DNA of 17,464 nt from an uncultured bacterium (GCA_963934385.1 CAWVYO010000046.1:1-17464); one strand, 5' to 3'. Shown: positions 2,321 through 15,514, counted from the stretch's first letter. Numbers and translations are program-made. The notes: generated from the letters alone by a model not told the origin.

Positions 2321-2339
2321 CGAAATTACCAGGGAAATA

Positions 2340-4103
2340 TCAGACGTTTTTCACCGACAATTCAACCAGTTGTACGGCTTCGGCTGACGATGGTGCCCCA
2401 GACAATAAACACTGTGCCTTTGTCGTCTTAGGGAATGCTATTACATCGCGGATGTTCTCAGTAGAGGCCAAAAGCATCGCACAGCGATCAAACCCAAAGG
2501 CTATACCTCCGTGTGGAGGCGCACCGTTACGTAGAGCGTCAACCAAGAAGCCGAATTTTTCTGTAGCCTCTTCTGGGCTTAGACCCAACGCTGTGAACAC
2601 CTGGCTCTGAACATCTGGGTTGTGAATACGAATACTACCGCCAGCTATCTCATAGCCATTGCACACTAGGTCATACGCATCGGACAATACGTCACTCTCA
2701 CGACCTGAGCTAAGATATTCAACATGCTCCTTTTTAGGAGATGTAAATGGGTGGTGACACGCTACCCAGCGGTTTGAATCGTCGTCGAACTCAAACGCAG
2801 GGAAGTCAACAACCCAACAGAAAGAGAACTTTTCTCTAGGGTAAAGTGTAAGCTCCTTACCAAGATGTGCCCTAAGGCGCCCAAGACCTGCCTGAACACT
2901 CTTCTCAGCTCCAAGCCCCAGCAATAGAAGGTCGCCCTCTTCGGCGTTAAGCTTGGCCCCTACAACCTCGCGCTCAGACTCGGACAAGAGCTTGCCCATT
3001 GGACCACTCCAACCATCTGCGTTGACCTTACCCCACATAAGTCCACCCATTCCGTAGCGCCTAACAAACTCAGTCCAACGATCGATAACCTTCCGTGAGC
3101 TGGTACCAGCGGCACCTTTTACGTTCATGGCTTTTGCGATTCCACCATCAGAAATAGCACCCCCCACTATACGGGACTCCGACTTTGAGAGCTCATCGGT
3201 GAGGTATACATGCTCCATAGCAAATCGGGTATCCGGTGCGTCAACCCCAAAGCGATCCATGGACTCCTGCCAGGTAATACGGACAATATCTGGGATCTCA
3301 ATCCCACGAACACTGCTCCACATTGACCGCAACACACCTTCGGCGAGCTCAATCACCATCTCCTGTGTAGGAAACGACATCTCAATATCGATCTGAGTAA
3401 ACTCTGGCTGACGGTCTGCTCGAAGATCCTCGTCTCTAAAACACTTTACGATTTGAAAATACCTATCTAAGCCTGACACCATTAGCAGCTGCTTGAAGAT
3501 TTGAGGACTCTGAGGCAACGCATACCACTGACCTGCGTGGACACGAGATGGTACCAAGTAGTCACGAGCCCCCTCTGGGGTCGCCTTAGTGAGTACCGGT
3601 GTCTCGATCTCAAGGAACGACTCTGAGTCTAGATACCCGCGAACAGCCTGTGCTGCCTTATGTCGAATAACCAGGTTTTTCTGAAGCTCTGGACGACGCA
3701 GGTCGAGGTAACGATACTTTAGGCGTGTCTCCTCGTGTGCATTAGCGGCGCTCTCTGGTGTAAACGGGAGAGGTGGCGTATTAGACAACTGTGTAAACTC
3801 GCTAGGAACGATCTCTATCTCTCCTGTTGGGATCTTCTTGTTGGGATTTGATCGCATAACGACCTTGCCTGTCACCTCAACAACGAACTCCTGACGAACC
3901 TTGGCAGCCAGCTCGCGAACATTATCCGCACACCGCTCATCAACAGTCACCTGAACCTTCCCGTAACGGTCTCTAATATTTAGAAACGTCACGCCGCCGA
4001 GGTTGCGATAGCTATCAACCCAACCCTGAATTGTTACCGTAATACCGTTGTTATCGGCGGTTAATTCCCCACACACATGAGTGCGTCGCGCATTCTTGAG
4101 CAT
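2340..4103 (-). CDS. aspS: Aspartate--tRNA ligase (aspartyl-tRNA synthetase, class IIb, bacterial type with insertion domain)
   Basis: 587 aa. The N-terminal OB-fold reads 'RTHVCGELT...IQGWVDSYRNLGGVTFLNIRDRYGKVQV'. Class II motif 2 'FQIVKCFRDEDLRADRQPEFTQIDIEMSF' is near-identical to E. coli AspRS. Motif 3 is 'GGIAFGFDRCAMLLASTENIRDVIAFPKT'. The ATG is at 4101-4103, with a GGAGG RBS 6 nt upstream on the minus strand (4110-4114). Confidence 0.97.
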   Translation of the reverse strand: MLKNARRTHVCGELTADNNGITVTIQGWVDSYRNLGGVTFLNIRDRYGKVQVTVDERCADNVRELAAKVRQEFVVEVTGKVVMRSNPNKKIPTGEIEIVPSEFTQLSNTPPLPFTPESAANAHEETRLKYRYLDLRRPELQKNLVIRHKAAQAVRGYLDSESFLEIETPVLTKATPEGARDYLVPSRVHAGQWYALPQSPQIFKQLLMVSGLDRYFQIVKCFRDEDLRADRQPEFTQIDIEMSFPTQEMVIELAEGVLRSMWSSVRGIEIPDIVRITWQESMDRFGVDAPDTRFAMEHVYLTDELSKSESRIVGGAISDGGIAKAMNVKGAAGTSSRKVIDRWTEFVRRYGMGGLMWGKVNADGWSGPMGKLLSESEREVVGAKLNAEEGDLLLLGLGAEKSVQAGLGRLRAHLGKELTLYPREKFSFCWVVDFPAFEFDDDSNRWVACHHPFTSPKKEHVEYLSSGRESDVLSDAYDLVCNGYEIAGGSIRIHNPDVQSQVFTALGLSPEEATEKFGFLVDALRNGAPPHGGIAFGFDRCAMLLASTENIRDVIAFPKTTKAQCLLSGAPSSAEAVQLVELSVKNV

Positions 4104-4182
4104 TTCTGGCCTCCATAGTCGCAGGTCTTCTATCTGGTAATGCCTCGGGACGCACCGTTTCAGTCCCAGGCACCTCTACATA

Positions 4183-7100
4183 CTACTGCTCAGCGTTATC
4201 CCAGCCAGAGGCACATTCAGGATCTTGAGAATCCGAGAAACCATCAAAATCATTATCCAAGCTGTCATTACACTGGTAAGCGACGTTGTAACCGCCCTGC
4301 TCAGTGGCCGTTGTAGATGTTGGGCAGTCGGGATCATCTGTGTCCACCCAACCGTCAGAGTCGTTATCTAGCGTGTCATTACACTCAGTGATTGGATCCG
4401 CTTCATCTGAATCAACTGCATCAGCACAGCCCAGGTCATCGGAGTCAATCAAACCGTCGCTGTCATCGTCCAACCCATTGTTACACACATAAGAAGAACT
4501 GTAGCCCCCTTGCTCGTAAAGAGTAGCCGAAGTTGCGCAGTCGGGATCATCTGTGTCGTACCAACCATCACCATCGTTGTCGATCGTGTCAGCACACTCC
4601 GCCAAGTGGCTCTCATCGGCGTCAAACGCCGACTCACAACCAAAGTCATCGGCGTCAGTGTAGCCGTCGGCGTCATCGTCAGTCCCGTTGTTACACACAA
4701 ACGAGGTCTCATAACCTAGCTCTGTTGCACTCCAAGAACAGTCAGGATCGTCTGAGTCGTACCAACCATCGCCGTCGTCGTCTGCACCATCGGAACAGGT
4801 TGCGTCAGCCACTGTCGCCTCGAGGTTATCCCAAGCGTCAAGACACTCACTGTCTTCACTATCTACAAGAGCATCCCCGTCATCATCTACGCCATTGTTA
4901 CACTCCGCAGCACCTGTGTACCCAGCCTCAGCGGTCGAGGTAACACAGTCGGGATCTTCGTCGTCAATCCAGCCGTCGCTATCGTTGTCACTGGAGTCAC
5001 TACATACGGATCCAGGGTTGGTCTCAAGGCTATCCCATGCGTTGTCGCAACCTGTATCGTTACCGTCAGTGTAGCTGTCGTTGTCGTCATCGGCGCCGTT
5101 GTTGCACTCACTAGTTATAAAGCCAACCTCTTCGCCCACATACCAGCAGTCTGGATCATCGTCGTCGATCCAGCCATCGCTATCATTGTCAGATTGGTCA
5201 TCACAAGAGGTACCATCGCCCTCTATTACATCAAACCCCGAGTCACAGTCGCTATCGGTTGAGTCCGCATAACCGTCTGAGTCGTTATCCAGTCCATCGG
5301 AGCAAGCCACTTGCCAGGAGCCATCCTCGGCGTAACCTAACAAGCAGTCTGGATCGTCATCGTCAGTCCAACCGTCGCCGTCGTTGTCACTCGAATCAGA
5401 GCAGGTGACGTCACCGTCCACCTCTGTATCCATTAGTGCCTCTAGGCAACCTGGATCCTCCGCATCGGCGTAGCCATCGAGGTCGTTATCAACACCGTCG
5501 TTACAGGCTGAAGGGAAGGCCCCTCGCTCGGCGTTACCAAACATACAGTCCGGATCAGTGTCGTCCACCCAACCATCGAGGTCATCGTCAATGGCGTTGA
5601 TACAGCTACCTGCCGCAAGGGCGTCCTCCTGGTTAGCCCAAGCGTTCAGACACTGAGGATCGTCACCATCTACAAAGCTGTCTAAATCGTTATCAACACC
5701 ATCGTGGCAGGCTGTCGATGCGAAGCTGTTGTCCTCTGAAACTCCCAACACACAGTCGGGATCATCCCCGTCTATCCAGCTGTCAAAGTCATTATCTAAT
5801 AGATCGGAACACGTAGAATCTGGATCGGACTCATTACTGTCAATCGCAAGCGCGCAGCCCGAGTCCTCAGCATCAACAAGAGAATCTGAGTCGTCGTCGA
5901 TACCATTCCCACAGACAGAAGTGCCCCAACCCAACTCAAGACCGTATACACCACAGTCAATATCGTCCGAATCGATCCAACCATCGGAGTCATTGTCTAA
6001 CTCATCCGAGCATGGGTCAGTCGACGACGCACTCAGCTCGAGGTTGTCCCACGCGTCGTCACAACCGGTATCGTTTGCGTCGATGTCACCGTCGGAGTCG
6101 TTGTCAACTCCATCGTTGCATTCAGCCAAACCAGCAGCACCACCGGACTCAACGCCACCATTAAAGCAGTCAGGGTCCTCATCGTCAACCCAACCGTCGG
6201 AGTCATCGTCCGTACCGTCCAAACAGGTGGCGTCTAGAGAGTCCTCATCTTCATCGAGCGCGTCTTCACAATCCGAATCGTCCGAGTCTATGTCTCCATC
6301 GGAGTCGTTATCAATGCCATCGTTACAGACGACAGTGGTGAACCCGACCTCCTCACCGCTAAAACTACAATCTGGATCATCTGTATCGACCCAACCATCG
6401 GAGTCATTGTCTTCAAAATCTGTGCAGACTGGCTCTGCTTGCTCGTAGTCCTGCCAAGCCACTATGCAGTCTGAGTCGGCTGCATCTATGGTGCCGTCTG
6501 AGTCGTTATCCAGCCCGTCATTACAAGCGAAACTTGTAGTTGCAGACTCATTCCCCGTAGATAGGCAGTCAATATCATCTGCGTCTGACCAGCCGTCTCC
6601 GTCATCGTCAGAGCCGTTCTCGCAGTCATCCGCATTGTCGTCTTCGACAGTGTCATAGGCGCTATCGCAACCTGTATCAACTTCGTCTATTAGCAGGTCG
6701 CCGTCGTTATCCACGCCATCGTTACACTCGGAGTCACCGTACCCCAGCTCATCCTCATCTTCGTCGCAGTCGGGATCTTGGTCGTCGATCCAACCATCGG
6801 AGTCATTGTCTAGACCGTCGCCATAGCAGGTGCCATCTACCTCATCGTCATCGAAACCGTCGTCGCAACCGATATCGTCGAAATCAACGTCACCGTCACC
6901 GTCATTGTCGCTATCGTCATTGCACTCGCTAGATGAGGTTCCTAACTCTTCGGTTCCGGTTGAGCAGTCTGGATCTAAATCATCACGCCAACCATCTTCG
7001 TCGTTGTCTTCGCCGTCAGTACAGTCAGTCGACGAGGAGCTCTCTACGTCATCTAGGGCATCAAAGCATTCAGAGTCATCAGTATCCACAGATCCATCAG

Positions 7101-9261
7101 AGTCATTATCTAGTCCGTCGTTACACTCGGTTGCACCAACACCTGACTCAACATCCGTCCCGTCACAGTCGGGGTCTTCAGCATCTATCCAGCCATCAGA
7201 ATCGTTGTCCTGAAGGTCGTTACAATCAGTAGAGATGTCTGTTTCGTCGTTGTCACTACCCTCGTTACAACCAGGATCTTCTGAATCAACAAGCCCATCT
7301 AAATCGTTGTCGCTACCGTCATTACACGCAGACGAAGAAGTTGACGGTCCCTCTTGATTATCAGTTGCCGTACCGTTGCAGCCCGGATCGTCATCATCTA
7401 TCCAGCCATCGGAGTCATTGTCCACCGAGTCGGAACATGCATACTCTTGCTCATAGAGGTCACCAGCATCATCGCAGTCATCGTCAGCAGAGTCGATGTC
7501 GCTGTCGCTGTCATTATCGACACCGTCGTTACACTGAGTTCCCGAATACCCCGTCTCTGTGCTACCTGTGACACAGTCCGGGTCTTCAGCATCTATGTAA
7601 CCATCGGAGTCGTTGTCCAACAGATCTTCACACTCACCTGCCTCAACCGTATCACTGGCTGCAGTACAGACCGTATCGAGAGCGTCTATATAGAAGTCTC
7701 CATCGTTGTCTATCCCATCGTTACACTCAGTTGAGCCCCAACCACTCTCGGAGCTGCCAACCGAGCAGTCTGGGTCATCCGCATCGATCCAGCCATCGGA
7801 GTCATTGTCCACCGAGTCTGAACAGTAGTCTTCCTCAGCGTCGTCCAGCGCATTGTCACAATCTACGTCATCAGAGTCGACCTTTCCGTCAAAGTCGTTG
7901 TCCGATCCATCGTTACACTCAGTAGTGCCGTAGCCCGCCTCGGTATCTCCTGCATCACAGTCCGGATCGTCTAAATCGATCCATCCGTCGGAATCGTTAT
8001 CCAATGAATCAGAACAGGCTTCTGCCTCGGTATCGTCGGCTGATGAGTCACAGTCAACGTCGAAACCGTCGATATCACTGTCACCGTCGTTATCTAAACC
8101 ATCGTTGCACTCAGTTGAGCCCTCAAAGCCAGATCCTTCGCTCTCGCCGTAGATACTGCCAAGACAACCCAGATCGTCAATATCAATCCAAGAGTCTGCG
8201 TCGTTATCCAGCCCGTCTTCGCAGTCGTTAAACTCGGTGTCATCTAAGGCATCGGCACAACTAGGATCAAAGAAGTCAGTAGACAGATCACCGTCGTTAT
8301 CAACACCATCGTTGCACTCAACTGAGCCATAACCGACCTCTTCATCCCCAGTCGTACAATCGGGATCGTACACGTCAGTCCAGCCATCGCCGTCGTTGTC
8401 TACCTCATCGGAACATCCCGGCAGAAACTCTGTAGCTAATGAATCGATACACTCTGGATCATCGGAATCAGTGAGACCGTCGTTATCGTTATCCAGACCA
8501 TCATTGCACTCATAATCGGTATAGTCGCCGTTCTCTACACCCGCTACTAGGCACTCTGGGTCGTCGGCATCAGTCCAGCCATCGAAATCGTTGTCTAGAC
8601 CGTCGTCACAGATACTTATTTCTGATTCATCAGTTGCGACATCGCACTCTTCGTCCTCACGATCAATGAGACCATCTTCGTCGTTATCTAGACCGTCATT
8701 ACACTCGCCATCGCCAAAACCAGTCTCCTCAATCGAAGAGTCGCAGTCGGGATCTTCCTCGTCAACCCAACCGTCTAAATCGTTATCGTCTCCGTCATTA
8801 CAGGGGTGAATTGGCGTATCTAAGAGTGAAAACCCTGTGATCGTCACCTCTTGAACGGTCTGATCAGCAAAGGAGTATTCTTCGGTTGCTGGAGAAGATG
8901 CGATCAAAGTCACACCACTCCAACCAAGGGCCAAGAAGCTCATAGAGGGACTGTTGTTCCCCTGCTTCAGCTCTAATATTTTAAACCCCTCGTCCAGATC
9001 ATACAGATAGGCGGCCTCTAACTCGGGGTCGTCTTCTACCCAGTCAGCGAACAATAGAGCGCCCTGCTCTCCAGCCACTATCTCATCTCCAGACGAATCT
9101 AAAAACGGGCTGCTTGGATCTATAATAACACCAACAGCATCTGCCATTCCCGATAGGGCGCTAGCCTCCTCAGTATCGATTCCAACCAAAATGGAAGTGG
9201 GGGTCTCTGGAGCCGTACAGGCAGACAACAAGATCGCCAATGGGATAATATTTAACTTCAC
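4183..9261 (-). CDS. Giant (1692 aa) highly acidic tandem-repeat lipoprotein built from about 46 Cys-bracketed DxDxDG-type putative Ca2+/metal-binding 21-mers (MopE-like / thrombospondin-type-3-like motif), preceded by a ~150-aa N-terminal domain of unknown function
   Basis: The GTG start at 9259-9261 has an AGAGG about 9 nt upstream. A lipoprotein signal 'MKLNIIPLAILLSAC' gives a lipobox L-S-A-C. Residues 154-1690 consist of repeats with core 'C-[NS]-D-G-x-D-N-D-x-D-G-x-x-D-x-x-D-P-x-C', alternating between a 'DGW[IVT]D..DPDC' subtype and an 'ECNDG.DND' subtype. Asp and Glu are extremely abundant, Lys and Arg almost absent, and there are about 93 Cys. A long ORF running through a repetitive region with no frameshifts argues that this is a real gene. 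Confidence 0.9.
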   Translation of the reverse strand: MKLNIIPLAILLSACTAPETPTSILVGIDTEEASALSGMADAVGVIIDPSSPFLDSSGDEIVAGEQGALLFADWVEDDPELEAAYLYDLDEGFKILELKQGNNSPSMSFLALGWSGVTLIASSPATEEYSFADQTVQEVTITGFSLLDTPIHPCNDGDDNDLDGWVDEEDPDCDSSIEETGFGDGECNDGLDNDEDGLIDREDEECDVATDESEISICDDGLDNDFDGWTDADDPECLVAGVENGDYTDYECNDGLDNDNDGLTDSDDPECIDSLATEFLPGCSDEVDNDGDGWTDVYDPDCTTGDEEVGYGSVECNDGVDNDGDLSTDFFDPSCADALDDTEFNDCEDGLDNDADSWIDIDDLGCLGSIYGESEGSGFEGSTECNDGLDNDGDSDIDGFDVDCDSSADDTEAEACSDSLDNDSDGWIDLDDPDCDAGDTEAGYGTTECNDGSDNDFDGKVDSDDVDCDNALDDAEEDYCSDSVDNDSDGWIDADDPDCSVGSSESGWGSTECNDGIDNDGDFYIDALDTVCTAASDTVEAGECEDLLDNDSDGYIDAEDPDCVTGSTETGYSGTQCNDGVDNDSDSDIDSADDDCDDAGDLYEQEYACSDSVDNDSDGWIDDDDPGCNGTATDNQEGPSTSSSACNDGSDNDLDGLVDSEDPGCNEGSDNDETDISTDCNDLQDNDSDGWIDAEDPDCDGTDVESGVGATECNDGLDNDSDGSVDTDDSECFDALDDVESSSSTDCTDGEDNDEDGWRDDLDPDCSTGTEELGTSSSECNDDSDNDGDGDVDFDDIGCDDGFDDDEVDGTCYGDGLDNDSDGWIDDQDPDCDEDEDELGYGDSECNDGVDNDGDLLIDEVDTGCDSAYDTVEDDNADDCENGSDDDGDGWSDADDIDCLSTGNESATTSFACNDGLDNDSDGTIDAADSDCIVAWQDYEQAEPVCTDFEDNDSDGWVDTDDPDCSFSGEEVGFTTVVCNDGIDNDSDGDIDSDDSDCEDALDEDEDSLDATCLDGTDDDSDGWVDDEDPDCFNGGVESGGAAGLAECNDGVDNDSDGDIDANDTGCDDAWDNLELSASSTDPCSDELDNDSDGWIDSDDIDCGVYGLELGWGTSVCGNGIDDDSDSLVDAEDSGCALAIDSNESDPDSTCSDLLDNDFDSWIDGDDPDCVLGVSEDNSFASTACHDGVDNDLDSFVDGDDPQCLNAWANQEDALAAGSCINAIDDDLDGWVDDTDPDCMFGNAERGAFPSACNDGVDNDLDGYADAEDPGCLEALMDTEVDGDVTCSDSSDNDGDGWTDDDDPDCLLGYAEDGSWQVACSDGLDNDSDGYADSTDSDCDSGFDVIEGDGTSCDDQSDNDSDGWIDDDDPDCWYVGEEVGFITSECNNGADDDNDSYTDGNDTGCDNAWDSLETNPGSVCSDSSDNDSDGWIDDEDPDCVTSTAEAGYTGAAECNNGVDDDGDALVDSEDSECLDAWDNLEATVADATCSDGADDDGDGWYDSDDPDCSWSATELGYETSFVCNNGTDDDADGYTDADDFGCESAFDADESHLAECADTIDNDGDGWYDTDDPDCATSATLYEQGGYSSSYVCNNGLDDDSDGLIDSDDLGCADAVDSDEADPITECNDTLDNDSDGWVDTDDPDCPTSTTATEQGGYNVAYQCNDSLDNDFDGFSDSQDPECASGWDNAEQ
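4186..8802 (-). repeat. Imperfect coding tandem repeat: about 23 di-repeats of ~200 bp (about 46 21-codon motif units plus linkers) inside the giant lipoprotein gene
   Basis: The first repeat Cys is residue 154 (codon at 8800-8802) and the last repeat ends just before the stop. The nucleotide sequence is GAC/GAT/AAC/GGN-rich and recurs with period ~100 and ~200 bp. Copies are diverged, with no long identical stretches, which is consistent with an old array under selection. Confidence 0.85.
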
Positions 9262-10343
9262 GGTAGCAACACCTCTACATCACCAGTTGGTGCCGGTTCA
9301 GGCTTCATTGATTCGGCGACAACTGCCCCCGTGACACCCACTCCTACAGTTCCAGCACCTACAGCAGCCCAGAAGGTCCAGCGAGATGTAAGCGGGGATA
9401 TAATCTCCAGAGTCGAGCTGTCTGGTGATCCCTCCTGAAACAACGTGGCCCTGTAGCTTACTCTTCCCTCTCTAGGGACCCTCACCGACCGCTCAACAAC
9501 CTGAACTCCAGGAGCTTCTACCCTTACAAGGTAAGTCCCTCGAGCAATATCTAAAGAGACCTTAGGACCCTCTCCAATTAGATGACCGTCCACATAGACC
9601 AGGGCACTATCGTTTCCCGTCTTAACCAGAAGCTCGGGCGAATCGGCCACCATTGTGACCTGTACATCCCCCCTAGTACCATCAGACGTGTCGACCTCGC
9701 GCAGCGCTGTGCCATAACCTTCTAATTGGATACGCACGCGGTGAGCCCCACTCTCAATCTCTGTTAGACTCAGGGGAGTTACACCAACAAGTTCGCTATC
9801 TAGATATACATTTGCACCGCTTGGGTTCGAGCCAAAAGAGAACAGACCTTGGGATGACTGTAACTGCTCAAAAATGAGTACATTGGCTCCATCCGTGTAT
9901 GTGAAGCTTCCAGAGACTGGTTCGTGCTGCGGCGCAATCAATGTGAACTCGTGATCGCCAACGGGCATGTCACTAAGCCTAATAGGAGCGCTACCCATAG
10001 CCTGACCATCAACTGTTACTGTCGCGCCAGTTGGGGTCACCATAAACTCTACTGTACCGCTGCCAGAGAATAGCTCTGCAGATACTTCACTGGGAACGCC
10101 CTCCGATATACCAACCCTAGTCGCCCAGGGAGTGAAGTTATCCGCCACGATCCTTATTGAGTGACTACCTACAGTCAACTCACCTTCATACGGGGTGACT
10201 CCGACCTCTACGTAATCGACGTAAACATTAGCGCCATCAACGTTTGAAACAACCGATATTGTTCCCATTGGATCAGCCAAGGCAGAGGATCCTACGAATA
10301 GGCATATAGGCAGCAGGTGTTTGATGGTTCTTATCAAGCTCAT
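9258..10343 (-). CDS. PEGA-domain protein (4 tandem PEGA domains) with N-terminal signal peptide and C-terminal transmembrane anchor
   Basis: The ATG at 10341-10343 has an AGGAGA about 11 nt upstream. The signal peptide is 'MSLIRTIKHLLPICLFVGSSALA'. Four segments fit the PEGA pattern G-A-x-V-Y-V-D-G-x-x-[LV]-G-x-T-P...G-x-H-x-[VI]-R-[IV]: 'GANVYVDYVEVGVTP..GSHSIRI', 'GATVTVDGQAMGSAP..GDHEFTL', 'GANVYLDSELVGVTP..GAHRVRI' and 'ALVYVDGHLIGEGP..GTYLVRV'. The C-terminal hydrophobic stretch is 'WTFWAAVGAGTVGVGVTGAVVA'. The TGA stop at 9258-9260 overlaps the GTG start of the downstream giant gene. Confidence 0.85.
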   Translation of the reverse strand: MSLIRTIKHLLPICLFVGSSALADPMGTISVVSNVDGANVYVDYVEVGVTPYEGELTVGSHSIRIVADNFTPWATRVGISEGVPSEVSAELFSGSGTVEFMVTPTGATVTVDGQAMGSAPIRLSDMPVGDHEFTLIAPQHEPVSGSFTYTDGANVLIFEQLQSSQGLFSFGSNPSGANVYLDSELVGVTPLSLTEIESGAHRVRIQLEGYGTALREVDTSDGTRGDVQVTMVADSPELLVKTGNDSALVYVDGHLIGEGPKVSLDIARGTYLVRVEAPGVQVVERSVRVPREGRVSYRATLFQEGSPDSSTLEIISPLTSRWTFWAAVGAGTVGVGVTGAVVAESMKPEPAPTGDVEVLLP

Positions 10344-10405
10344 TGGGCCAGTTTTCTCCTTTGAACAGCGATCGACACCTTACCACAGAGTAGAGGAAAC
10401 CACAG

Positions 10406-11206
10406 CTATCTGATCGCAATTCCATCGTGATAGATAGCCCAATAAACAGATCCTGCACCTAGAGAGAGTATTATCGGCAATGCTACTGCCCCCCATTGAG
10501 AGGGAGTAACACTCAAAATAACTGGCTCATAAACTGGAGCAGATCGCCCTGTCCTGGACGGCAACAGAGTCACCACCTCGACCCTATCCTCCATCCTGGC
10601 TCCTTCAACCTGGACTAAGTGACGCCCCGGAGAAAGCGATGAGATTTCCACTAATTCTTGATTTGAGATATTGCGCGTAACGCCATCAACTATCAACCTT
10701 GCAGCTGCTGGCTCTAATTCTACAATTAGATCGGCTGTGGTGCTAAACAGTAAGCCCGCTGCTGCCAGGTCGACCCCGCCTCCACGAGGTAGGTTCATCT
10801 GTAAAGGCTCTACAAGGAGCGCTCCTTCGGCTCCAAATATCTGTGTGTAGCCTATCTCTCTTGTACCCAAAAAACCTAATTCCACCCTCACCAGTAAATC
10901 CAAACCAAGGGACGTTACAGCGTCACGCCAACAAACTCCTCGTTCTCCGCAGCGCTCTCCTAAACTGGCAAGAATCCCCGCGTTAGAGCTTCCGTCCGAA
11001 AGCGAGGAGGTCAATTCGTAGTTGACGCTACCTCGAAAAAACTGCTCAAACCCCTCTACTGTCTTGGGGCTAACGGACACCGGAAGAGAGGCGTCATCAA
11101 CCACAGCCACCCCAACGCCCAAAGGCGCAGGCCAGCTCTCTACAGACTCTACAGCCTGTGAAACTCCACTCAAAAGGAACATGGGGATCAAGAGTTTCAA
11201 GCACAC
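10406..11206 (-). CDS. Secreted, membrane-anchored hypothetical protein with one PEGA-like segment
   Basis: The GTG start at 11204-11206 has an AGGA just upstream. The signal peptide is 'MCLKLLIPMFLLSGVSQA'. The PEGA-like stretch is 'ARLIVDGVTRNISNQELVEISSLSPGRHLVQVEGAR'. A C-terminal TM segment reads 'WGAVALPIILSLGAGSVYWAIY'. No other recognisable domain is present. Confidence 0.65.
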   Translation of the reverse strand: MCLKLLIPMFLLSGVSQAVESVESWPAPLGVGVAVVDDASLPVSVSPKTVEGFEQFFRGSVNYELTSSLSDGSSNAGILASLGERCGERGVCWRDAVTSLGLDLLVRVELGFLGTREIGYTQIFGAEGALLVEPLQMNLPRGGGVDLAAAGLLFSTTADLIVELEPAAARLIVDGVTRNISNQELVEISSLSPGRHLVQVEGARMEDRVEVVTLLPSRTGRSAPVYEPVILSVTPSQWGAVALPIILSLGAGSVYWAIYHDGIAIR

Positions 11207-11220
11207 TTTCCTAAAGCCCG

Positions 11221-11736
11221 CTACTGTAACAACCCTGACAATTCGGACTCAAGCTCGGACTCGAGCTGCCCGGCGTTCGGGGCTCCGACTGCAAACAGGT
11301 CGCCACTGGGGTCGATAATAAAGGTCATTGGCAGCATAGATACACCGTACCTCGCCGCAACAACACGATGATTGTCACGCAACACAGGGAAGTCTAGTCC
11401 CTGACCCTCGATCCAATTCGAAAGCTCACCGAGCTCGCCCTGATCAACGCTTACTCCAAAAACCTGAAGCCCGTCACGACGGTGGGAATTATAGACTGAA
11501 TTAAGTTCAGCCAACCCACTACCACCGCTATCTTTAGCAAAGAAATAGAGAACTACACTGCTTCGATTAGAAGGATCATCTGTAATCTCTGCCAAAGATA
11601 TCCTAGAGCCAGACGCTTCTGTTGTCGCCTCGTTAATAGCCGGAAGACTAAAAAGACTCGCTGGCTCACCTACACTTGGGACCTGAGCATTTGCGGCAAG
11701 AGAAAATAACAATGGAAATATTAGGCTCACGAACAC
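11221..11736 (-). CDS. Thioredoxin-fold (TlpA/ResA/redoxin-like) secreted protein with the CxxC active site replaced by SGGS, predicted redox-inactive
   Basis: The signal peptide is 'MFVSLIFPLLFSLAANA'. The protein is collinear with the TlpA/AhpC-TSA redoxin pattern: 'VVLYFFAKDSGGSGLAEL' corresponds to 'vLvnFWAsWCgPCr.E.P', so Ser sits at both Cys positions. Then 'GLQVFGVSVD', 'GLDFPVLRDNHRVVAARYGVSMLPMTFIIDPSGDL' and the cis-Pro 'LP' before the beta-strand are conserved. The annotated start is the GTG at 11736. The GTG two codons downstream (11728-11730) has better AAGAGG spacing and may be the true start. Confidence 0.7.
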   Translation of the reverse strand: MFVSLIFPLLFSLAANAQVPSVGEPASLFSLPAINEATTEASGSRISLAEITDDPSNRSSVVLYFFAKDSGGSGLAELNSVYNSHRRDGLQVFGVSVDQGELGELSNWIEGQGLDFPVLRDNHRVVAARYGVSMLPMTFIIDPSGDLFAVGAPNAGQLESELESELSGLLQ

Positions 11737-11821
11737 CTCTTAGTGGATAGGCTACCGAGTAGTGAGAGTATCTCTTATAGTATGCTCGGTAAACCCCTTG
11801 CTTTCAAGTTGAGCCAAAATA

Positions 11822-13054
11822 ATGATGCCAATTCCATCACTTGTCGCCAAACTGGCGCTCTCGATATCAGCCGAAGGAGGGCGACTGTTTGCTGTGGGCG
11901 GATGGGTTAGAGACAACATCGCTATGCGCGGTTCAAAGGATGTTGATCTAGAAGCTCACAAAATTTCCAGCGAGGATCTTGAGAGAGTTCTGCTAGCCCA
12001 CGGTAGAGTCGACTTTGTGGGGAAGAGCTTTGGGGTATACAAGGTCACAATAGGAGATCAAACGCTGGACGTATCACTACCTCGACGCGACTCATCCCCT
12101 ACATCTGTGCAGCCTGACCCTTTCATGGGAGTATCTGAGGCCGCCCGGCGCAGGGACATCACCATAAACGCTATAATGCTAGACCCCATCTCACAGGAAA
12201 TAGTCGATCCGTTCAACGGAGTTTCAGATCTAAAAAATGGGATTCTAAGAGAGGTGGACGCATCACTCTTTGGTGACGACCCCTTGAGGGTATTGCGCGT
12301 AGTCCGGTTCGCCTCTATTTTCGAATTCGAAATAACGGAATCGTTAGCCACGCTGTGTAGAGGTTGCGACCTTTCAGGGATACCCGTAGAGAGAATTCTT
12401 ACGGAATTGCACCGCATAATGCTCGAGTCACCAAACCCTCAGACCGCCTTAAAAGTACTTGAAGACCTAGGCCAACTCAACACGGTGATCCCATTCACCG
12501 CTGGAGCCTCTTTGGATCAAATGTACGACAACTGGAGCGCTGCGTCTGAATTGCGCGCTGATCTTAAGAGTGACGCTCAGCGGTTAGTTCTTATGTGGGG
12601 TGCCCTTTTACACGCATCTGGCAACCCACCTACTAAAGCACTTAGCTACTTTAAGATTCGTCGTTACGGAAAAGCACCATTAGTAAAACAGGTCACAGGT
12701 CTGCTTGAAACACTGCGTTCGGGTACCGAAGATCTAAACACACTTTTGCGTACAATGGCTGAGCACTGTGACATTTCGGCTGGACTAGCTCTCTATATTG
12801 CTACCAATTCCAGCGTAATACCTGGGTTAGATAGAACAGAGCTGTACGGTCGCGCAAAGACCCTAAATATAGTAGATGGTCCACTCCCTGTACTTATAGA
12901 CGGGCAGACCTTGAGTGACCTAGGTGTTGCAGATGGTCCGGATATGGGTCACTGGATAAAAGCAGTTCGCAAAGCTCAACTATCGGGAAGGCTCTCCACA
13001 AAGACAGAAGCCAGTAACTGGCTTGTAAACCAACTAGACCTCACTGGAGATTAG
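11822..13054 (+). CDS. tRNA nucleotidyltransferase (CCA-adding enzyme) / poly(A) polymerase family protein (class II polymerase-beta-type head domain; no obvious HD domain)
   Basis: The head-domain motifs are 'AVGGWVRDNIAMRGSKDVDL' (the GGxVRD nucleotidyltransferase motif with catalytic D..D) and 'RRDITINAIMLD' (the RRD-[FI]-T-I-N-A motif). Length is 410 aa. The ATG is at 11822 with a second ATG in tandem, and the RBS is weak. Confidence 0.8.
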   Translation: MMPIPSLVAKLALSISAEGGRLFAVGGWVRDNIAMRGSKDVDLEAHKISSEDLERVLLAHGRVDFVGKSFGVYKVTIGDQTLDVSLPRRDSSPTSVQPDPFMGVSEAARRRDITINAIMLDPISQEIVDPFNGVSDLKNGILREVDASLFGDDPLRVLRVVRFASIFEFEITESLATLCRGCDLSGIPVERILTELHRIMLESPNPQTALKVLEDLGQLNTVIPFTAGASLDQMYDNWSAASELRADLKSDAQRLVLMWGALLHASGNPPTKALSYFKIRRYGKAPLVKQVTGLLETLRSGTEDLNTLLRTMAEHCDISAGLALYIATNSSVIPGLDRTELYGRAKTLNIVDGPLPVLIDGQTLSDLGVADGPDMGHWIKAVRKAQLSGRLSTKTEASNWLVNQLDLTGD

Positions 13055-13057
13055 GAA

Positions 13058-14587
13058 ATGTTACCCCTTTTTATTTGCCAACTTGTAATAGCGGGGGCTT
13101 TAGCACAGGAGGTGTCGACTACACAGCCTGTGAGCCCAATGGTGGTTACATCGGATCCTGCAGAGGAGATAGACCAACCTTTCGAGCTTCGGGGGGATCT
13201 TCGAGCAGAGTACCTTATCGGGCAACCAATCATCGTAACACTGACAGTAAACAACACCAGTTCTGAGCCCGCTACCTTCCAAAACCTGTCCGCTCGGCCC
13301 TGGCTAGTCCGATTCAAAGTCGAAACTGTTGACTCTCGGGGAAACTCGGGTCAAACACAGACCAGGTTTACAACCCCACCAGAGGTCGACCCCATGACCC
13401 TCTGGACTATTCAACCACGGGGCATGAGGACTGTAGACATTGAGATCCCTTCTGGAGCCAGCCTGGGTCTCGGTGATTACAATATTTCAATTGAGGTAGA
13501 TGGCCAAGCTGGGCTCTTCGAGATCCCCACAACCCAGGTATCGATACAGGTCACAAATCCTGTAGCAGATCATCTCCCTTCTGAGGTAATGGGAATAGAG
13601 AGAACAGGGCTTCACGCTACCTGGCTTCACCGAGCTGGTGAAGGTTATGACCTCTACATACACTCGGTGAGTGGTAATCAGATTGACGGAGATAGCTTCA
13701 ACACCCACATTGCTCACCTATCTGACCCAATAGACCCCACTCTTTCGCGCTCCTTACCGGCCCAAGCCCTAAACAGGTTCATATACTGGAGACATGGCGA
13801 ACGAGGAATCGGCTTTATTGAAAGTAACGGATCGTCGCAGAACAGAGTCGACACAGTGGATCTGCCTTACCCACAGGTTGAGCTGCTAGCCCGCGGGATA
13901 ACAACAACATCTGGCGAGCTACTAATACCTCTTTGGATACCGTCACCAGCGGGCATTACCGGAGAGGTTAGAGTCGCAGAGATAAAAAATGGCAGACTCG
14001 AGGCCATCACATCGGTTGTAAGGATGCGCTCCAAACCAGTCTGGACCGAATCAGGTATCGACAGCTCTGGGGCTTTGAGGCTTCTCTTAGGGCACAGTGA
14101 AGGAGTTGACCTATACACCCTATCTGCCGCCACAGGACTCCCTGCCCGTGGACTAAGGGTGATCCAAGGTCGTGGAACCTCGACCAGAGGATCCTTTGGG
14201 ATCTCAACTTACGAAGAGCAGCAGGGGCTCTCTGTAATAACTGCCAACATTTCTGTGGGTGAGGCAGTAGATACTGAACAACCCACAGATGTGATCGCCA
14301 CTCAATGGTGGACACTCAATGGTAATCTCATCGATACCCCAACTCCTGTTGCGTTACCGGGCAACGGGAATCAAATAGAGAGCCTATTGGCTGGCCCCGA
14401 AGGGGCTTGGGTGCTCAACTATAACAGCGAGTCAGGTGTGAGTATGTTTGCGGACCAACAGGGTGAATCCAGCTCCATTGAACCTTGGGCGAACCTTATT
14501 TGGGACGCCAACGGAGATCTATGGATCCGTACCGTTAACGGGCTCGCTTTTGGAACCGCTCCTATCTCTGTCCAACCACCAAACTAA
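13058..14587 (+). CDS. Secreted hypothetical protein (509 aa) of unknown function
   Basis: The ATG is 4 nt after the stop of the preceding gene, with GGAGA upstream. The signal peptide is 'MLPLFICQLVIAGALAQE'. I recognise no conserved motif. It ends with TAA at 14585-14587. Confidence 0.7.
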   Translation: MLPLFICQLVIAGALAQEVSTTQPVSPMVVTSDPAEEIDQPFELRGDLRAEYLIGQPIIVTLTVNNTSSEPATFQNLSARPWLVRFKVETVDSRGNSGQTQTRFTTPPEVDPMTLWTIQPRGMRTVDIEIPSGASLGLGDYNISIEVDGQAGLFEIPTTQVSIQVTNPVADHLPSEVMGIERTGLHATWLHRAGEGYDLYIHSVSGNQIDGDSFNTHIAHLSDPIDPTLSRSLPAQALNRFIYWRHGERGIGFIESNGSSQNRVDTVDLPYPQVELLARGITTTSGELLIPLWIPSPAGITGEVRVAEIKNGRLEAITSVVRMRSKPVWTESGIDSSGALRLLLGHSEGVDLYTLSAATGLPARGLRVIQGRGTSTRGSFGISTYEEQQGLSVITANISVGEAVDTEQPTDVIATQWWTLNGNLIDTPTPVALPGNGNQIESLLAGPEGAWVLNYNSESGVSMFADQQGESSSIEPWANLIWDANGDLWIRTVNGLAFGTAPISVQPPN

Positions 14588-14597
14588 AAACCTACTT

Positions 14598-14638
14598 ACG
14601 CCAAAAACAAGAAGGGCCGACCCGGTTGGGGTCAGCCC
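14598..14638 (-). terminator. Rho-independent terminator, mainly for the minus-strand lipoprotein operon and possibly bidirectional: GC-rich hairpin 14614-14638, then a T-run on the minus strand
   Basis: GGGCCGACCC-GGTTG-GGGTCAGCCC forms a 10-bp stem with one mismatch and a 5-nt loop. On the minus strand it is followed by 'TTCTTGTTTTTGG', the reverse complement of 14600-14613. On the plus strand the downstream sequence 'TCACTAAATAAAAG' is not U-rich. It sits between convergent genes whose ends are at 14587 (+) and 14666 (-). Confidence 0.55.
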
Positions 14639-14665: not shown

Positions 14666-15514
14666 CTATTCTTCGTCACCACAAAGGTCTGGGTTAGCTG
14701 TGCAGAACTCAAAGAGATTGTTGTTACAGAACGCTGATTCAAGAGCTTCGAACGGCTCGTGCGCCAAATCCATATTATCTGCATCGCGAGCTTCCGATGG
14801 CATAGTACACTCGGTTAGACCGCCAATAGAGCTAGCGATATCATTACATGCGCCATCTACGATAGCGAAAGCGTAATCTACCAATCCATCATCAAGGGGT
14901 ACTGAGAAGGTGTTGAGTACAACTGTGTAGCTCTTACCAGGGTGTACAGAGGTGTCAATTGTACAATACTCAATGGCACCGCGACCACCGTGGGCATCGG
15001 GAAGGTTACCGTAACCCGCCATGTAGCACTCGTTGAACTCAAGGCGGACCTCGTTCCCGAGAGAATCCTCGTAAACAGCAGCAAAGTCGCCCATTTCGTA
15101 ACCTGGCGAGCCTGTATAGTAAGCAGTAAGACCTACCTCTAGGTCAATGTCACCATCATCTTTGTAGTTGTCTTGGTATGAATAGTTTTCGGTTGGAGAC
15201 TGCGCACTTACAGACTCGTTCCAAAACACTGCTTCTGGGTCGACCATAACGCAAACCTCTCCGCCTGTTCCAGCGAAAGTCAAGGTCGTTCCACCGTACG
15301 TCCCTGCATCTGCAGCTCCAATGCGACCGTAGTGGATCACCTCTGTACGAGAGTCCTGGAAGTCTCCAAGCTCAATAACACCCATCTCTCCTAGATCCTG
15401 AACACCTGGGTAGTTAGGGTTTGGCTCTGAGAGATATGTACGACCTTCACGGTCACAAGCTGCCAGCGTTAAACCGACAACAGAGATGGAAACAATAGCC
15501 TTAGATATAGTCAT
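14666..15514 (-). CDS. Cys-rich lipoprotein of unknown function
   Basis: The ORF track extends to a TTG at 15533-15535 (the bases are CAA on the + strand). The ATG at 15512-15514 gives a canonical lipoprotein signal 'MTISKAIVSISVVGLTLAAC' with lipobox L-A-A-C, and an AGAGGA lies 8-9 nt upstream. That start also removes the overlap with the upstream gene, leaving a 4-nt gap. The mature protein has about 8 further Cys. Confidence 0.7.
   Translation of the reverse strand: MTISKAIVSISVVGLTLAACDREGRTYLSEPNPNYPGVQDLGEMGVIELGDFQDSRTEVIHYGRIGAADAGTYGGTTLTFAGTGGEVCVMVDPEAVFWNESVSAQSPTENYSYQDNYKDDGDIDLEVGLTAYYTGSPGYEMGDFAAVYEDSLGNEVRLEFNECYMAGYGNLPDAHGGRGAIEYCTIDTSVHPGKSYTVVLNTFSVPLDDGLVDYAFAIVDGACNDIASSIGGLTECTMPSEARDADNMDLAHEPFEALESAFCNNNLFEFCTANPDLCGDEE

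What the first reader, a model, noticed from the sequence alone, without database searches (positions are those of the whole stretch)
9255..9264. GTGA start/stop overlap translationally couples the 4xPEGA membrane protein to the giant repeat lipoprotein
The PEGA gene's TGA at 9258-9260 (minus strand) shares two bases with the giant gene's GTG start at 9259-9261. Such 4-nt overlaps are typical of stoichiometrically co-expressed, physically interacting partners. This supports reading the two as a functional pair, with a type-I membrane PEGA scaffold plus a lipid-anchored polyanionic Ca-binding fibre.
Basis: seen in the sequence. Interest (0 to 1): 0.55.

Follow-up and report, generated by a model that had tools for sequence, protein, structure and literature searches.

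The report
Overlapping PEGA and calcium-repeat lipoprotein genes
Two neighbouring cell-envelope genes share a four-base stop/start overlap, which is a very common arrangement, but this pair stays together in every related bacterium examined, so it is a genuine two-gene unit of unknown function.

Summary
The GTGA overlap is real. On the minus strand the 361-aa 4xPEGA gene ends at TGA 9260-9258, and the 1,692-aa lipoprotein gene starts at GTG 9261-9259. That GTG is the first start codon after an in-frame TGA 21 nt upstream. It gives a normal lipoprotein signal peptide ending at the lipobox Cys15. A GAGGTG Shine-Dalgarno-like hexamer lies 8 nt upstream.

On its own the overlap is ordinary. In related loci, 7 of 65 other same-strand gene pairs also overlap by 4 nt.

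The conservation is what carries weight. In all 18 orthologous lineages found (named records mostly Myxococcota MAGs; PEGA identity 31-77%), the PEGA gene is directly followed by the orthologous lipoprotein gene, although the flanking genes differ. Twelve lineages keep an ATGA/GTGA overlap and six have 2-12 nt spacers.

This is therefore a conserved, probably translationally coupled, two-gene envelope module. Physical interaction and fixed stoichiometry remain inference.

The lipoprotein has a conserved ~135-aa N-terminal domain followed by 46 loops, each bounded by two cysteines (presumably a disulfide) and 45 of them exactly 20 residues long. The loops carry the Ca2+-coordinating pattern of the teneurin-4 C-rich domain and thrombospondin type-3 repeats (NCBIfam NF033662).

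The coupling mechanism is known. The module itself is uncharacterised.

The parts
9258..9261 (-). GTGA: GTG start of the lipoprotein gene (9261-9259) overlapping the TGA stop of the PEGA gene (9260-9258)
   Evidence: Read directly; ORF table. The same ATGA/GTGA junction is present in 12 of 18 orthologous lineages.
9270..9275 (-). GAGGTG, a Shine-Dalgarno-like hexamer inside the last codons of the PEGA gene, 8 nt before the GTG
   Evidence: duplex with the 16S 3' tail is -9.7 kcal/mol, and 12% of random window positions reach <= -8. Lineages that keep the overlap score -5.4 to -10.8; those without it score -0.6 to -7.1. The stretch GTAGAGGTGTT(G/A)CTACCGTGA is conserved between the window and L001, although synonymous sites are otherwise about 43% identical.
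9280..9282 (-). TGA in the lipoprotein reading frame, 21 nt upstream of its GTG; it closes that frame, so no earlier start is possible
   Evidence: upstream stop at distance 21, no upstream in-frame start; sequence.
9258..10343 (-). Gene for the 361-aa PEGA protein: signal peptide (residues 1-23), four PEGA beta-sandwich domains (about residues 25-315), hydrophobic helix (residues 322-345, coordinates 9309-9380), conserved acidic tail ...PEPAPTGDVEVLLP
   Evidence: Pfam PF08308, 163 bits, 4 stretches. AF2 mean pLDDT 88.6, above 94 over residues 25-315, helix at 322-345. Kyte-Doolittle peak 1.63 at 324-344. 33 orthologues aligned.
10356..10361 (-). AAGGAG Shine-Dalgarno motif of the PEGA gene itself, in the 62-nt spacer after the upstream gene; this suggests independent initiation for the first gene of the pair
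   Evidence: -8.9 kcal/mol; ORF spacing.
4183..9261 (-). Gene for the 1,692-aa acidic lipoprotein (pI about 4, 26% Asp, 93 Cys, 7 Lys+Arg)
   Evidence: NCBIfam NF033662 acid_disulf_rpt, 628.9 bits, 36 stretches.
9217..9261 (-). Lipoprotein signal peptide MKLNIIPLAILLSAC with lipobox L-S-A-C (Cys15)
   Evidence: Translation. The Cys is invariant in the 16 aligned orthologues, and L023 also has a lipobox.
8803..9216 (-). Family-specific N-terminal domain of the lipoprotein (residues 16-153), the proposed docking region
   Evidence: Conserved in the 16 aligned lineages (A3). Only 20 representative proteins among 1.84 billion match at E<=1e-3, always at their N-terminus. No Pfam or NCBIfam model covers it.
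4213..8802 (-). 46 Cys-to-Cys loops (45 of them exactly 20 residues: C-x-D-x-x-D-N-D-x-D-G-x-x-D-x-x-D-x-x-C), alternating between two types with a period of about 64-66 aa
   Evidence: The only PDB sequence match is the teneurin-4 C-rich domain 7PLP (E 0.006-0.007). Seven Ca2+-coordinating positions are Asp/Asn in 45 of 45 loops.

Best explanation
The GTGA is the junction of a conserved two-gene envelope operon found in a lineage whose named records are mostly Myxococcota.

Shown:
- The two genes are co-directional and overlap by 4 nt.
- The GTG is the first start codon available to the lipoprotein gene and gives it a normal signal peptide.
- An SD-like GAGGTG lies 8 nt upstream, inside the PEGA gene.
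- The pair is kept in all 18 orthologous lineages, with junctions of -4 to +12 nt.

Inferred mechanism: the genes are transcribed together. A ribosome terminating at the PEGA UGA re-initiates on the overlapping GUG (termination-reinitiation), helped by the embedded SD. Lipoprotein synthesis is thereby tied to PEGA synthesis in time and place.

Inferred fate of the products: both are exported by Sec. The PEGA protein is a stalk of four beta-sandwich domains held in the inner membrane by its C-terminal helix. The lipoprotein is lipidated at Cys15 and carries a long array of 46 Ca2+-binding loops, each bounded by two cysteines that presumably form a disulfide.

The two most likely act together. 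Contact, if there is any, is probably through the lipoprotein's conserved N-terminal domain, in a Ca2+-dependent envelope or surface structure. The biological role of that structure is unknown.
For: Junction and start codon.

SD-like element: (-9.7 kcal/mol). Six of eight synonymous third positions are conserved in the last 8 codons, against 43% gene-wide, placing this window in the top 5.6%.

Synteny: the PEGA gene is followed by the lipoprotein gene in the window, L001/2, L003/4, L005/6, L007 (=L015), L008, L009, L010, L011, L013, L014, L016-L021 and L023. The flanks differ between lineages: selB, GNVR/Wzy, aspS, Band_7, xanthine-dehydrogenase-like genes.

Junction lengths: -4 nt in 12 lineages and +2, +2, +7, +7, +9, +12 nt in the other six, all close to the -8..+10 nt class that PMC10666635 treats as predictive of termination-reinitiation. 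By comparison, 11% of other same-strand pairs in these loci are at -4 and 45% lie within -8..+12.

Orthology of the partner: a lipobox Cys and a ~135-aa N-terminal domain are conserved in the 16 aligned lineages.

Specificity: a 29%-identical PEGA paralogue (L012) has no such neighbour, and an acid-repeat protein lacking the N-terminal domain (P0085, L022) has no PEGA neighbour.

Ca2+ reading: with the teneurin-4 crystal structure described in PMC9058538.

Separate proteins, not a fusion: every downstream gene starts with its own signal peptide and lipobox, and the frame offset between the two genes differs among lineages.
Against: There is no expression data, so co-transcription and coupling are inferred.

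Six of the 18 lineages lack the overlap. One of them (L023) has a canonical GGAG in a 9-nt spacer, so independent SD-driven initiation is clearly workable.

The start region is not unusually structured: mean unpaired probability is 0.36 against a background of 0.39 +/- 0.11. Nothing therefore forces dependence on upstream translation.

The SD-like GGTG motifs lie in conserved Val/Gly codons of the PEGA tail, so protein-level constraint and RNA-level constraint cannot be separated.

The 18 lineages are related, so retained overlaps are not independent events.

Only about 30-45% of tightly spaced pairs in model organisms encode complex partners.

The PEGA C-terminal helix is only moderately hydrophobic (Kyte-Doolittle 1.63). 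It has its Arg on the N-terminal side and an acidic tail after it, which is atypical for a type-I anchor.

The fold match of the loops to the teneurin C-rich domain is not significant (Foldseek E about 1).
Confidence: 0.7

Rival explanations
1. The genes form an operon, but the overlap has no coupling role. They are co-transcribed and functionally related, the lipoprotein gene is initiated independently through its own SD, and the 4-nt overlap is simply the default tight packing of same-strand genes.
For: The -4 overlap is the commonest spacing in prokaryotes (PMC6728339, PMC10666635), and 7 of 65 other pairs in these loci have it. Six of the 18 lineages have 2-12 nt spacers instead. A good SD is present, and no structure occludes the start.
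Against: The junction never drifts beyond +12 nt in 18 lineages whose PEGA proteins are as little as 31% identical to the window's. In contrast, 33 of 65 other same-strand pairs sit more than 20 nt apart. Native pairs tested experimentally at such spacings were tightly coupled. Synonymous sites at the junction are more conserved than in the rest of the gene.
Confidence: 0.2
2. The lipoprotein actually starts at the TTG 21 nt downstream (codon 8, giving MAILLSAC...). There would then be no overlap, only a 17-nt untranslated gap.
For: Equally short lipoprotein signal peptides are the only option in some orthologues: MIALFFLAC in L010/L011 and MLLLLAC in L020. TTG is an allowed start codon.
Against: The GTG gives a normal n-region (Lys2) and a 10-residue hydrophobic core. 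It has an SD at the ideal 8-nt spacing, whereas the TTG has none. The nearest relative L001 has GTG-ATG at the same place. Eleven other lineages have ATG or GTG exactly at the overlap position.
Confidence: 0.07
3. Chance adjacency: two unrelated envelope genes happen to abut in this genome.
For: There is no functional data on either protein, and a single 4-nt overlap is common.
Against: The adjacency holds in 18 of 18 orthologous lineages with otherwise reshuffled neighbourhoods, and the partner's N-terminal domain is conserved. Paralogues of either gene lack the partner.
Confidence: 0.03

Closest known systems
Co-directional gene pairs with a 4-nt stop/start overlap (AUGA/GUGA), coupled by termination-reinitiation (Huber et al. 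2019, PMC6728339; 2023, PMC10666635)
   Same: Same geometry, with an SD motif inside the 3' end of the upstream gene. The spacing class (-8..+10 nt) is essentially held across orthologues (one lineage is at +12). Such pairs are enriched for subunits of one complex.
   Different: Coupling has not been measured here. The start is GTG rather than ATG in the window. One third of the lineages use short spacers. Both products are exported, so any assembly would take place after secretion rather than co-translationally in the cytoplasm.
Teneurin C-rich domain (PDB 7PLP; PMC9058538) and thrombospondin type-3 repeats
   Same: A 20-residue C-x-D-x-x-D-N-D-x-D-G-x-x-D-x-x-D-x-D-C loop. Positions equivalent to D840, D843, N844, D845, D847, D851 and D854 are Asp/Asn in 45 of 45 loops. 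The two Cys align with C838 and C857, which form a disulfide in teneurin-4. This is the same core motif that Tucker et al. (PMC3278476) noted in teneurins, a diatom enzyme and MopE.
   Different: Teneurin has one such domain with six Cys (three disulfides) and a conotoxin-like extension. Here there are two Cys per loop and 46 loops in tandem. Sequence E-values are only 0.006-0.007 over 21 residues and the fold match is not significant. There is no Pfam TSP_3 or MopE hit.
NCBIfam NF033662, acidic double-disulfide repeat-containing protein
   Same: The lipoprotein scores 628.9 bits against a cut-off of 41, with 36 matched stretches. The repeat is widespread: 1,028 proteins at E<=1e-10 in many architectures.
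   Different: The family is defined by the repeat alone. The lipobox, the specific N-terminal domain and the obligatory PEGA neighbour mark out a small subfamily that this library does not describe.
Myxococcus xanthus TraA/TraB (PMC12045341)
   Same: An operon-encoded pair of myxobacterial envelope proteins that form a 1:1 complex. One partner (TraA) is a Cys-rich surface protein (background knowledge), and the other (TraB) carries Ca2+-binding thrombospondin type-3 repeats.
   Different: No sequence relationship was found. TraB is a beta-barrel/OmpA protein and TraA a PA14/MYXO-CTERM receptor. This is an analogy of organisation only.
PEGA-domain proteins (Pfam PF08308; Adindla et al. 2004, PMC2447325)
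   Same: Four clear PEGA domains. The predicted beta-sandwich string resembles pilins, adhesins and S-layer stalks.
   Different: PEGA is a generic surface module with no assigned function. The C-terminal helix plus the invariant ...GD-V-x-V-x-LP tail is specific to this orthologous group.

Membership tests
Termination-reinitiation-coupled overlapping gene pair | Same strand, with stop and start codons sharing bases (NTGA, -4 nt) | tested here: met
   GTG 9261-9259 and TGA 9260-9258, both on the minus strand.
Termination-reinitiation-coupled overlapping gene pair | SD-like motif for the downstream gene inside the 3' end of the upstream gene | tested here: met
   GAGGTG at 9275-9270, 8-nt spacer, -9.7 kcal/mol.
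Termination-reinitiation-coupled overlapping gene pair | Downstream translation depends on upstream translation | not testable with these tools
   Needs a reporter assay or ribosome profiling. The RNA-accessibility calculation was uninformative.
Termination-reinitiation-coupled overlapping gene pair | Both genes lie on one transcript | tested here: inconclusive
   Promoter-like and terminator-like hits in 2200-12000 do not exceed the shuffled expectation, and none lies at the junction. No RNA data are available.
PEGA domain protein (PF08308) | Score above the Pfam gathering threshold | tested here: met
   163 bits against 20.8, four stretches. AF2 shows four beta-sandwich domains.
Acidic double-disulfide repeat protein (NCBIfam NF033662) | Score above the curated cut-off; tandem acidic repeats with paired Cys | tested here: met
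   628.9 bits against 41, 36 stretches. 46 Cys-Cys loops.
Bacterial lipoprotein (signal peptidase II substrate) | N-terminal signal peptide ending in a lipobox [LVI][ASTVI][GAS]C | tested here: met
   MKLNIIPLAILLSAC. The Cys is invariant in the 16 aligned orthologues. No dedicated predictor was available, and lipidation itself is not testable here.
Thrombospondin type-3 repeat (PF02412) / MopE metal-binding motif (PF11617) | Match to the Pfam model | tested here: not met
   No Pfam family at E<=0.01 for the 1,692-aa protein. The protein is therefore not filed as a member, although the Ca2+-site pattern is shared.
Teneurin-type C-rich Ca2+-binding domain | Acidic/Asn side chains at the Ca2+-coordinating positions, within a Cys-closed 20-residue loop | tested here: met
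   Seven positions are Asp/Asn in 45 of 45 loops, and the eighth in 31 of 45. The coordinating residues are taken from PMC9058538.
Teneurin-type C-rich Ca2+-binding domain | Six Cys forming disulfides in the pattern 1-3, 2-5, 4-6 | tested here: not met
   There are only two Cys per loop, equivalent to C838 and C857. The loops may work like the teneurin domain but are not members of that family.
Known C-terminal sorting signals (PEP-CTERM, MYXO-CTERM, GlyGly-CTERM, LPXTG) | Motif, then a TM helix, then a basic cluster; match to an NCBIfam model | tested here: not met
   No such NCBIfam hit for the PEGA protein. The order here is Arg, then helix, then an acidic PxPxPxGDVxVxLP tail.

The most novel reading that the evidence does not exclude
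The pair builds a Ca2+-rigidified envelope spacer or 'ruler'. The membrane-anchored PEGA stalk docks the lipoprotein's N-terminal domain, and the rod of Cys-bounded Ca2+ loops sets a fixed distance.

The loop number is held at about 46 (45-47 C-x18-C loops) in seven lineages whose PEGA partners are only 38-77% identical to the window's, and it is reset to about 21, 28 or 36-39 in others. This looks like selection on length.

Beta-sandwich modules of the PEGA / carboxypeptidase-regulatory type associate with these loops in three settings: across the two genes here, within one polypeptide in Myxococcota proteins P0126 and P0174, and as the C-rich/TTR contact in teneurins. This would point to an ancient bacterial interaction module that was later reused in teneurins.
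Probability: 0.12. Interest if true: 0.65.

Novelty: new member of a known kind. Interest (0 to 1): 0.35.

Why it matters
The overlap teaches nothing new about translation. Its value is as a pointer to a strictly conserved two-gene unit in poorly studied, mostly uncultivated Myxococcota.

The unit combines a membrane-anchored PEGA stalk with a lipoprotein that could bind on the order of a hundred Ca2+ ions, through 46 loops of the type seen once in teneurins and several times in thrombospondins.

If the two proteins form a complex, this would give PEGA domains a first defined partner. PEGA is a widespread surface module with no assigned function. It would also provide a tractable bacterial model for tandem T3-like Ca2+ loops.

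The conserved loop number raises a testable question about length control in the cell envelope.

Tried and rejected
1. Fusion by frameshifting at the overlap. Rejected: every downstream gene starts with its own signal peptide and lipobox, and the frame offset between the two genes differs among lineages (-1, +1 and 0, with a stop between them).

2. RNA structure hiding the start, which would enforce coupling. The start region has average accessibility (0.36 against 0.39 +/- 0.11), so this was uninformative.

3. Promoter and terminator scan of 2200-12000. Hits do not exceed the shuffled expectation, so the scan gives no evidence for or against co-transcription.

4. Homologue search with the lipoprotein's N-terminal 174 aa in the word-indexed database. 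It found nothing. The full-length query returned only repeat-sharing proteins and none of the syntenic 1,69x-aa orthologues seen in L001-L017; the top hit P0075 did turn out to be PEGA-linked. The exhaustive HMMER search found 20 mostly fragmentary representatives. The giant genes are probably broken in most assemblies, as in L005, where the gene is split into three calls.

5. AlphaFold of the N-terminal domain using orthologues from the fetched loci.

6. AlphaFold of two repeat periods, using the protein's own 20 periods as the alignment. The model had pLDDT 74 and was mostly coil. Foldseek returned only non-significant hits, the top three all to the teneurin-4 C-rich domain.

7. Foldseek of the PEGA model. 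It returned generic tandem beta-sandwich proteins; teneurin ranked only 24th (E 1.9e-3), so there is no specific link.

8. The upstream 266-aa protein as a second PEGA protein. hhalign gave E 0.0036 and probability 9%, which is inconclusive.

9. The wider operon (the AhpC-like gene and the 266-aa gene) as part of the unit. These genes are conserved only in the closest relative (L001) and not in the other lineages, so the core is the pair alone.

Full report
OBSERVATION

On the minus strand the sequence reads ...GTT GCT ACC GTG AAG TTA... in the lipoprotein frame. In the PEGA frame the same bases read ...TTG CTA CCG TGA. The 361-aa ORF 10343..9258 ends with TGA at 9260-9258. The 1,692-aa ORF 9261..4183 begins with GTG at 9261-9259.

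A start-like triplet overlapping a TGA is trivial in itself, because three of the four possible preceding bases create one. Three other facts carry the weight:
- The GTG opens a 1,692-codon frame.
- That frame is closed by a TGA 21 nt upstream (9282-9280), and no ATG/GTG/TTG lies between that stop and the GTG.
- The product starts MKLNIIPLAILLSAC: a basic residue, a hydrophobic core and an L-S-A-C lipobox.

The only alternative start is a TTG at codon 8. It would leave seven residues before the lipobox Cys and no basic residue.

The PEGA stop is equally secure, because all 33 aligned orthologues end in an invariant Leu-Pro. A relative whose PEGA protein is 77% identical has the same CTA CCG TGA junction (L001/L002), so a sequencing error is not a concern.

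HOW UNUSUAL IS IT?

Not at all, as a single case. The literature reports that -4 nt is by far the commonest distance between same-strand genes in 1,695 prokaryotic species, and that about 15% of co-directional pairs overlap in most groups (PMC10666635, PMC6728339). I tabulated 65 other same-strand neighbouring pairs from the related loci fetched here. Seven (11%) overlap by 4 nt, 29 lie within -8..+12 nt, and 33 are more than 20 nt apart.

A homology search with the PEGA protein found about 40 orthologue-like proteins of 345-382 aa. I fetched their contigs, scanned one genome per GTDB species and followed the best hit of the lipoprotein.

In every one of 18 distinguishable lineages, the PEGA gene is followed directly on the same strand by a gene for an acidic, Cys-rich lipoprotein. 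PEGA identity to the window ranges from 31 to 77%.

Where the records name an organism it is usually 'Myxococcota bacterium' or 'Deltaproteobacteria bacterium' MAGs. Two records carry other labels, which I could not check.

The downstream proteins are true orthologues. In the 16 lineages I aligned, they share the lipobox Cys and a ~135-aa N-terminal domain with invariant residues (A3).

The flanking genes differ. selB lies upstream in L003/L006/L007, with GNVR/Wzy genes downstream in L003/L006. aspS lies downstream in the window, L001, L010 and L011. A xanthine-dehydrogenase-like gene lies upstream in L009. L023 has selB-PEGA-lipoprotein-aspS. The pair is therefore the conserved unit.

The AhpC-like gene and the 266-aa gene upstream in the window recur only in the closest relative (L001).

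Specificity holds in both directions. A 29%-identical PEGA paralogue (L012) has no such neighbour. An acid-repeat protein lacking the N-terminal domain (P0085, L022) has no PEGA neighbour.

THE JUNCTION ACROSS LINEAGES

Twelve lineages have an ATGA or GTGA overlap: the window, L001, L003, L006, L008, L009, L010, L011, L016, L018, L019 and L021. Six have short spacers: CTGA+2 nt (L013, L020), TTGA+7 nt (L014, L017), TAG+9 nt with a GGAG in the spacer (L023), and TTGA+12 nt (L007/L015).

In L001 an ATG follows the GTG immediately, so a -1 overlap (TGATG) is an equally possible reading there.

The junction never exceeds +12 nt. All values lie in or right beside the -8..+10 nt class that Huber et al. 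use as predictive of termination-reinitiation, and reinitiation in their native pairs fell off steeply beyond about 14-20 nt.

If the lineages were independent, 12 of 17-18 at a background rate of 11% would be extremely unlikely. They are related, so this is not a proper probability. It still indicates retention, because synonymous sites are near saturation: third-position identity at identical codons is 43% even between the two closest sequences.

RIBOSOME-BINDING CONTEXT

GAGGTG (9275-9270) lies 8 nt before the GTG and pairs with the 16S 3' tail at -9.7 kcal/mol. Only 12% of random positions in the window reach -8. Lineages with the overlap score -5.4 to -10.8, and lineages without it score -0.6 to -7.1.

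Between the window and L001, six of eight synonymous third positions are conserved in the last eight PEGA codons. This places that window in the top 5.6% for the gene.

These motifs sit in the conserved G-D-V-x-V codons of the PEGA tail, so RNA-level and protein-level constraint cannot be separated.

The PEGA gene has its own AAGGAG (10361-10356) after a 62-nt spacer, consistent with independent initiation of the first gene of the pair.

The start region of the lipoprotein gene is not unusually structured. Promoter and terminator scans are at chance level.

THE TWO PROTEINS

The PEGA protein matches Pfam PF08308 four times (163 bits). AlphaFold with 33 orthologues gives four beta-sandwich domains at pLDDT above 94 (residues 25-315), an N-terminal helix (the signal peptide), a helix at 322-345 and a disordered tail. 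The nearest solved structures are generic tandem beta-sandwich stalks such as pilins, adhesins and S-layer SlaB.

The hydrophobic helix is Gly/Ala/Val-rich (Kyte-Doolittle 1.63), is preceded by Arg, and is followed by a conserved acidic tail P-x-P-x-P-x-G-D-V-x-V-x-L-P. This layout is the reverse of known sorting signals, and no NCBIfam sorting model matched. 'Type-I membrane protein' remains the most economical reading, but the tail is unexplained.

The lipoprotein (pI about 4, 26% Asp, 93 Cys, 7 Lys+Arg) matches NCBIfam NF033662, 'acidic double-disulfide repeat' (628.9 bits), and no Pfam family.

After Cys15 and the N-terminal domain it contains 46 Cys-to-Cys loops. Forty-five are exactly 20 residues long, with the pattern C-x-D-x-x-D-N-D-x-D-G-x-x-D-x-x-D-x-x-C. 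They alternate between a '..DGW.D..DPDC' type and a 'CNDG.DND.DG' type with a period of about 64-66 residues.

The only solved structure with detectable sequence similarity is the teneurin-4 C-rich domain (7PLP; E 0.006-0.007 over 21 residues). Its crystal structure shows three Ca2+ ions. Two of them are coordinated as in thrombospondin type-3 repeats, by D840, D843, N844, D845, D847, D851, D854 and D856, and C838-C857 form a disulfide (PMC9058538).

In the window protein, the seven positions equivalent to D840-D854 are Asp/Asn in 45 of 45 loops, and the eighth in 31 of 45. The two Cys align with C838 and C857. The 'Ca-binding polyanionic' reading is therefore well grounded in sequence, although it is unmeasured.

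An AlphaFold model of two periods was of middling confidence. It gave only non-significant Foldseek hits, the top three all to the teneurin C-rich domain.

The same core motif was noted in teneurins, a diatom enzyme and MopE by Tucker et al. (PMC3278476). The repeat is widespread: 1,028 proteins at E<=1e-10, in many architectures.

The N-terminal domain is rare. It has 20 representatives among 1.84 billion proteins, always at the N-terminus of the matching protein.

MECHANISM

The most likely picture is as follows. One mRNA carries both genes. Ribosomes finishing the PEGA gene re-initiate on the overlapping GUG, assisted by the embedded SD. Both products are secreted by Sec.

The PEGA stalk is then anchored in the inner membrane. 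The lipoprotein is lipidated at Cys15. Its +2 residues (Thr here; Ala, Gly, Tyr or Asn elsewhere) would favour onward sorting under E. coli-type rules (background knowledge, not tested).

The two proteins probably act together, but a scaffold running along the fibre is unlikely. PEGA length is constant (345-382 aa, four domains) while the partner ranges from 829 to 2,209 aa. Any contact is best sought at the partner's conserved N-terminal domain.

Everything in this picture beyond the sequence anatomy and the synteny is inference.

RIVAL EXPLANATIONS

The main rival is an operon without functional coupling, in which initiation is independent and SD-driven. It cannot be excluded, given the six spacer lineages and the unstructured start. 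A downstream TTG start is unlikely. Chance adjacency is effectively refuted by the synteny.

COMPARISON WITH KNOWN SYSTEMS AND VERDICT

The junction is a textbook member of the -4 overlap class. The proteins are members of PF08308 and NF033662. The loops work like teneurin C-rich / T3 Ca2+ sites but fail the membership criteria of those families: there is no Pfam TSP_3 or MopE hit, and each loop has two Cys rather than six.

The nearest organisational analogue is the myxobacterial traAB operon, whose products form a 1:1 surface complex and include T3 repeats (PMC12045341). There is no homology to it.

The finding is a correct observation of an ordinary feature. Its inference of a functional pair is upheld by comparative genomics, while the claims of stoichiometry and physical contact remain open.

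The module itself has not, as far as I could find, been described. Five literature searches turned up no paper on this pairing.

One feature deserves follow-up. The loop number is held at about 46 (45-47 C-x18-C loops, 93-94 Cys, 1,692-1,710 aa) in seven lineages whose PEGA partners are only 38-77% identical to the window's. This suggests selection on the length of the rod.

Noticed in passing
window 9261-9308 (-), PEGA residues 346-361; alignment A1: Every PEGA orthologue ends with a conserved acidic tail P-x-P-x-P-x-G-D-(V/T)-x-V-x-L-P-stop after the C-terminal hydrophobic helix. An Arg sits before the helix and there is no basic cluster after it. This is the reverse of the positive-inside rule and of known CTERM sorting signals. 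The tail is kept even where the gene overlap is lost.
   Followed up: partly
window 4213-8802 (-); L001, L003, L006, L007, L014, L017: The number of Cys-Cys loops is held at about 46 (45-47 C-x18-C loops, 93-94 Cys, 1,692-1,710 aa) in seven lineages whose PEGA partners are only 38-77% identical to the window's. Other lineages have 12, 21, 28, 34 or 36-39 loops. This suggests that the length of the rod is under selection.
   Followed up: partly
window 11221-11736 (-): A 171-aa AhpC/TSA / ResA-like thioredoxin-fold protein with a signal peptide but no cysteine at all, so it cannot be redox-active. It lies two genes upstream of a 93-Cys lipoprotein gene on the same strand. It is conserved only in the closest relative (L001).
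   Followed up: no
window 10406-11206 (-): A 266-aa protein with a signal peptide and a C-terminal hydrophobic helix but no family match. Residues 165-208 resemble a PEGA domain weakly (hhalign E 0.0036, probability 9%).
   Followed up: partly
L010 8755, L011 11038, L020 9083: In these orthologues the lipoprotein signal peptide is only 6-8 residues before the lipobox Cys (MIALFFLAC, MLLLLAC) and has no basic residue. No alternative in-frame start lies nearby. This is unusually short for Sec/SPII export.
   Followed up: partly
P0126, P0174 (Myxococcota MAG proteins): The same acidic Cys loops are fused in a single polypeptide to carboxypeptidase-regulatory-like beta-sandwich domains (Pfam PF13620, PF13715). 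These hit the same beta-sandwich regions as PEGA in this protein family (PF13620 also matches the PEGA protein weakly). This Rosetta-stone-style hint echoes the C-rich/TTR contact in teneurin-4.
   Followed up: partly
L023 (JGI 3300028844 contig), 2824-14613: The gene order is selB - PEGA - 2,209-aa lipoprotein (with an extra LTD domain) - aspS. This joins the two kinds of flank seen separately in other lineages and may be the ancestral arrangement.
   Followed up: no
L005 11137-16318 (GCA_964481655.1): The giant gene is called as three genes (399, 791 and 547 aa), whereas the same protein is intact (1,710 aa) in L006. Frameshifts or assembly errors in the repeats probably explain why full-length orthologues are nearly absent from the protein databases.
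   Followed up: partly
window 4449-7734, + strand ORFs (e.g. 5729-6448, 239 aa, Ser-rich): Long ORFs on the opposite strand inside the giant gene are most likely antisense shadows of its Asp-rich repeats rather than genes.
   Followed up: no
window 14666-17428 (-); L001 1188-5686: The C-terminal part of a TonB-dependent-receptor-like barrel is followed by two small lipoprotein-like genes (305 aa with ..ITGC.., 289 aa with ..LAAC..). The first two are 2 nt apart, and the last two overlap by 17 nt if the TTG start is used. The same trio is present in L001.
   Followed up: no
window 995-2299 (+): A Band_7 protein with Pro-rich linkers and two C-terminal GYF_2-like repeats. A Band_7/GYF_2 gene also lies close to the pair in L001, L009 and L011, which looks like residual synteny.
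   Followed up: no
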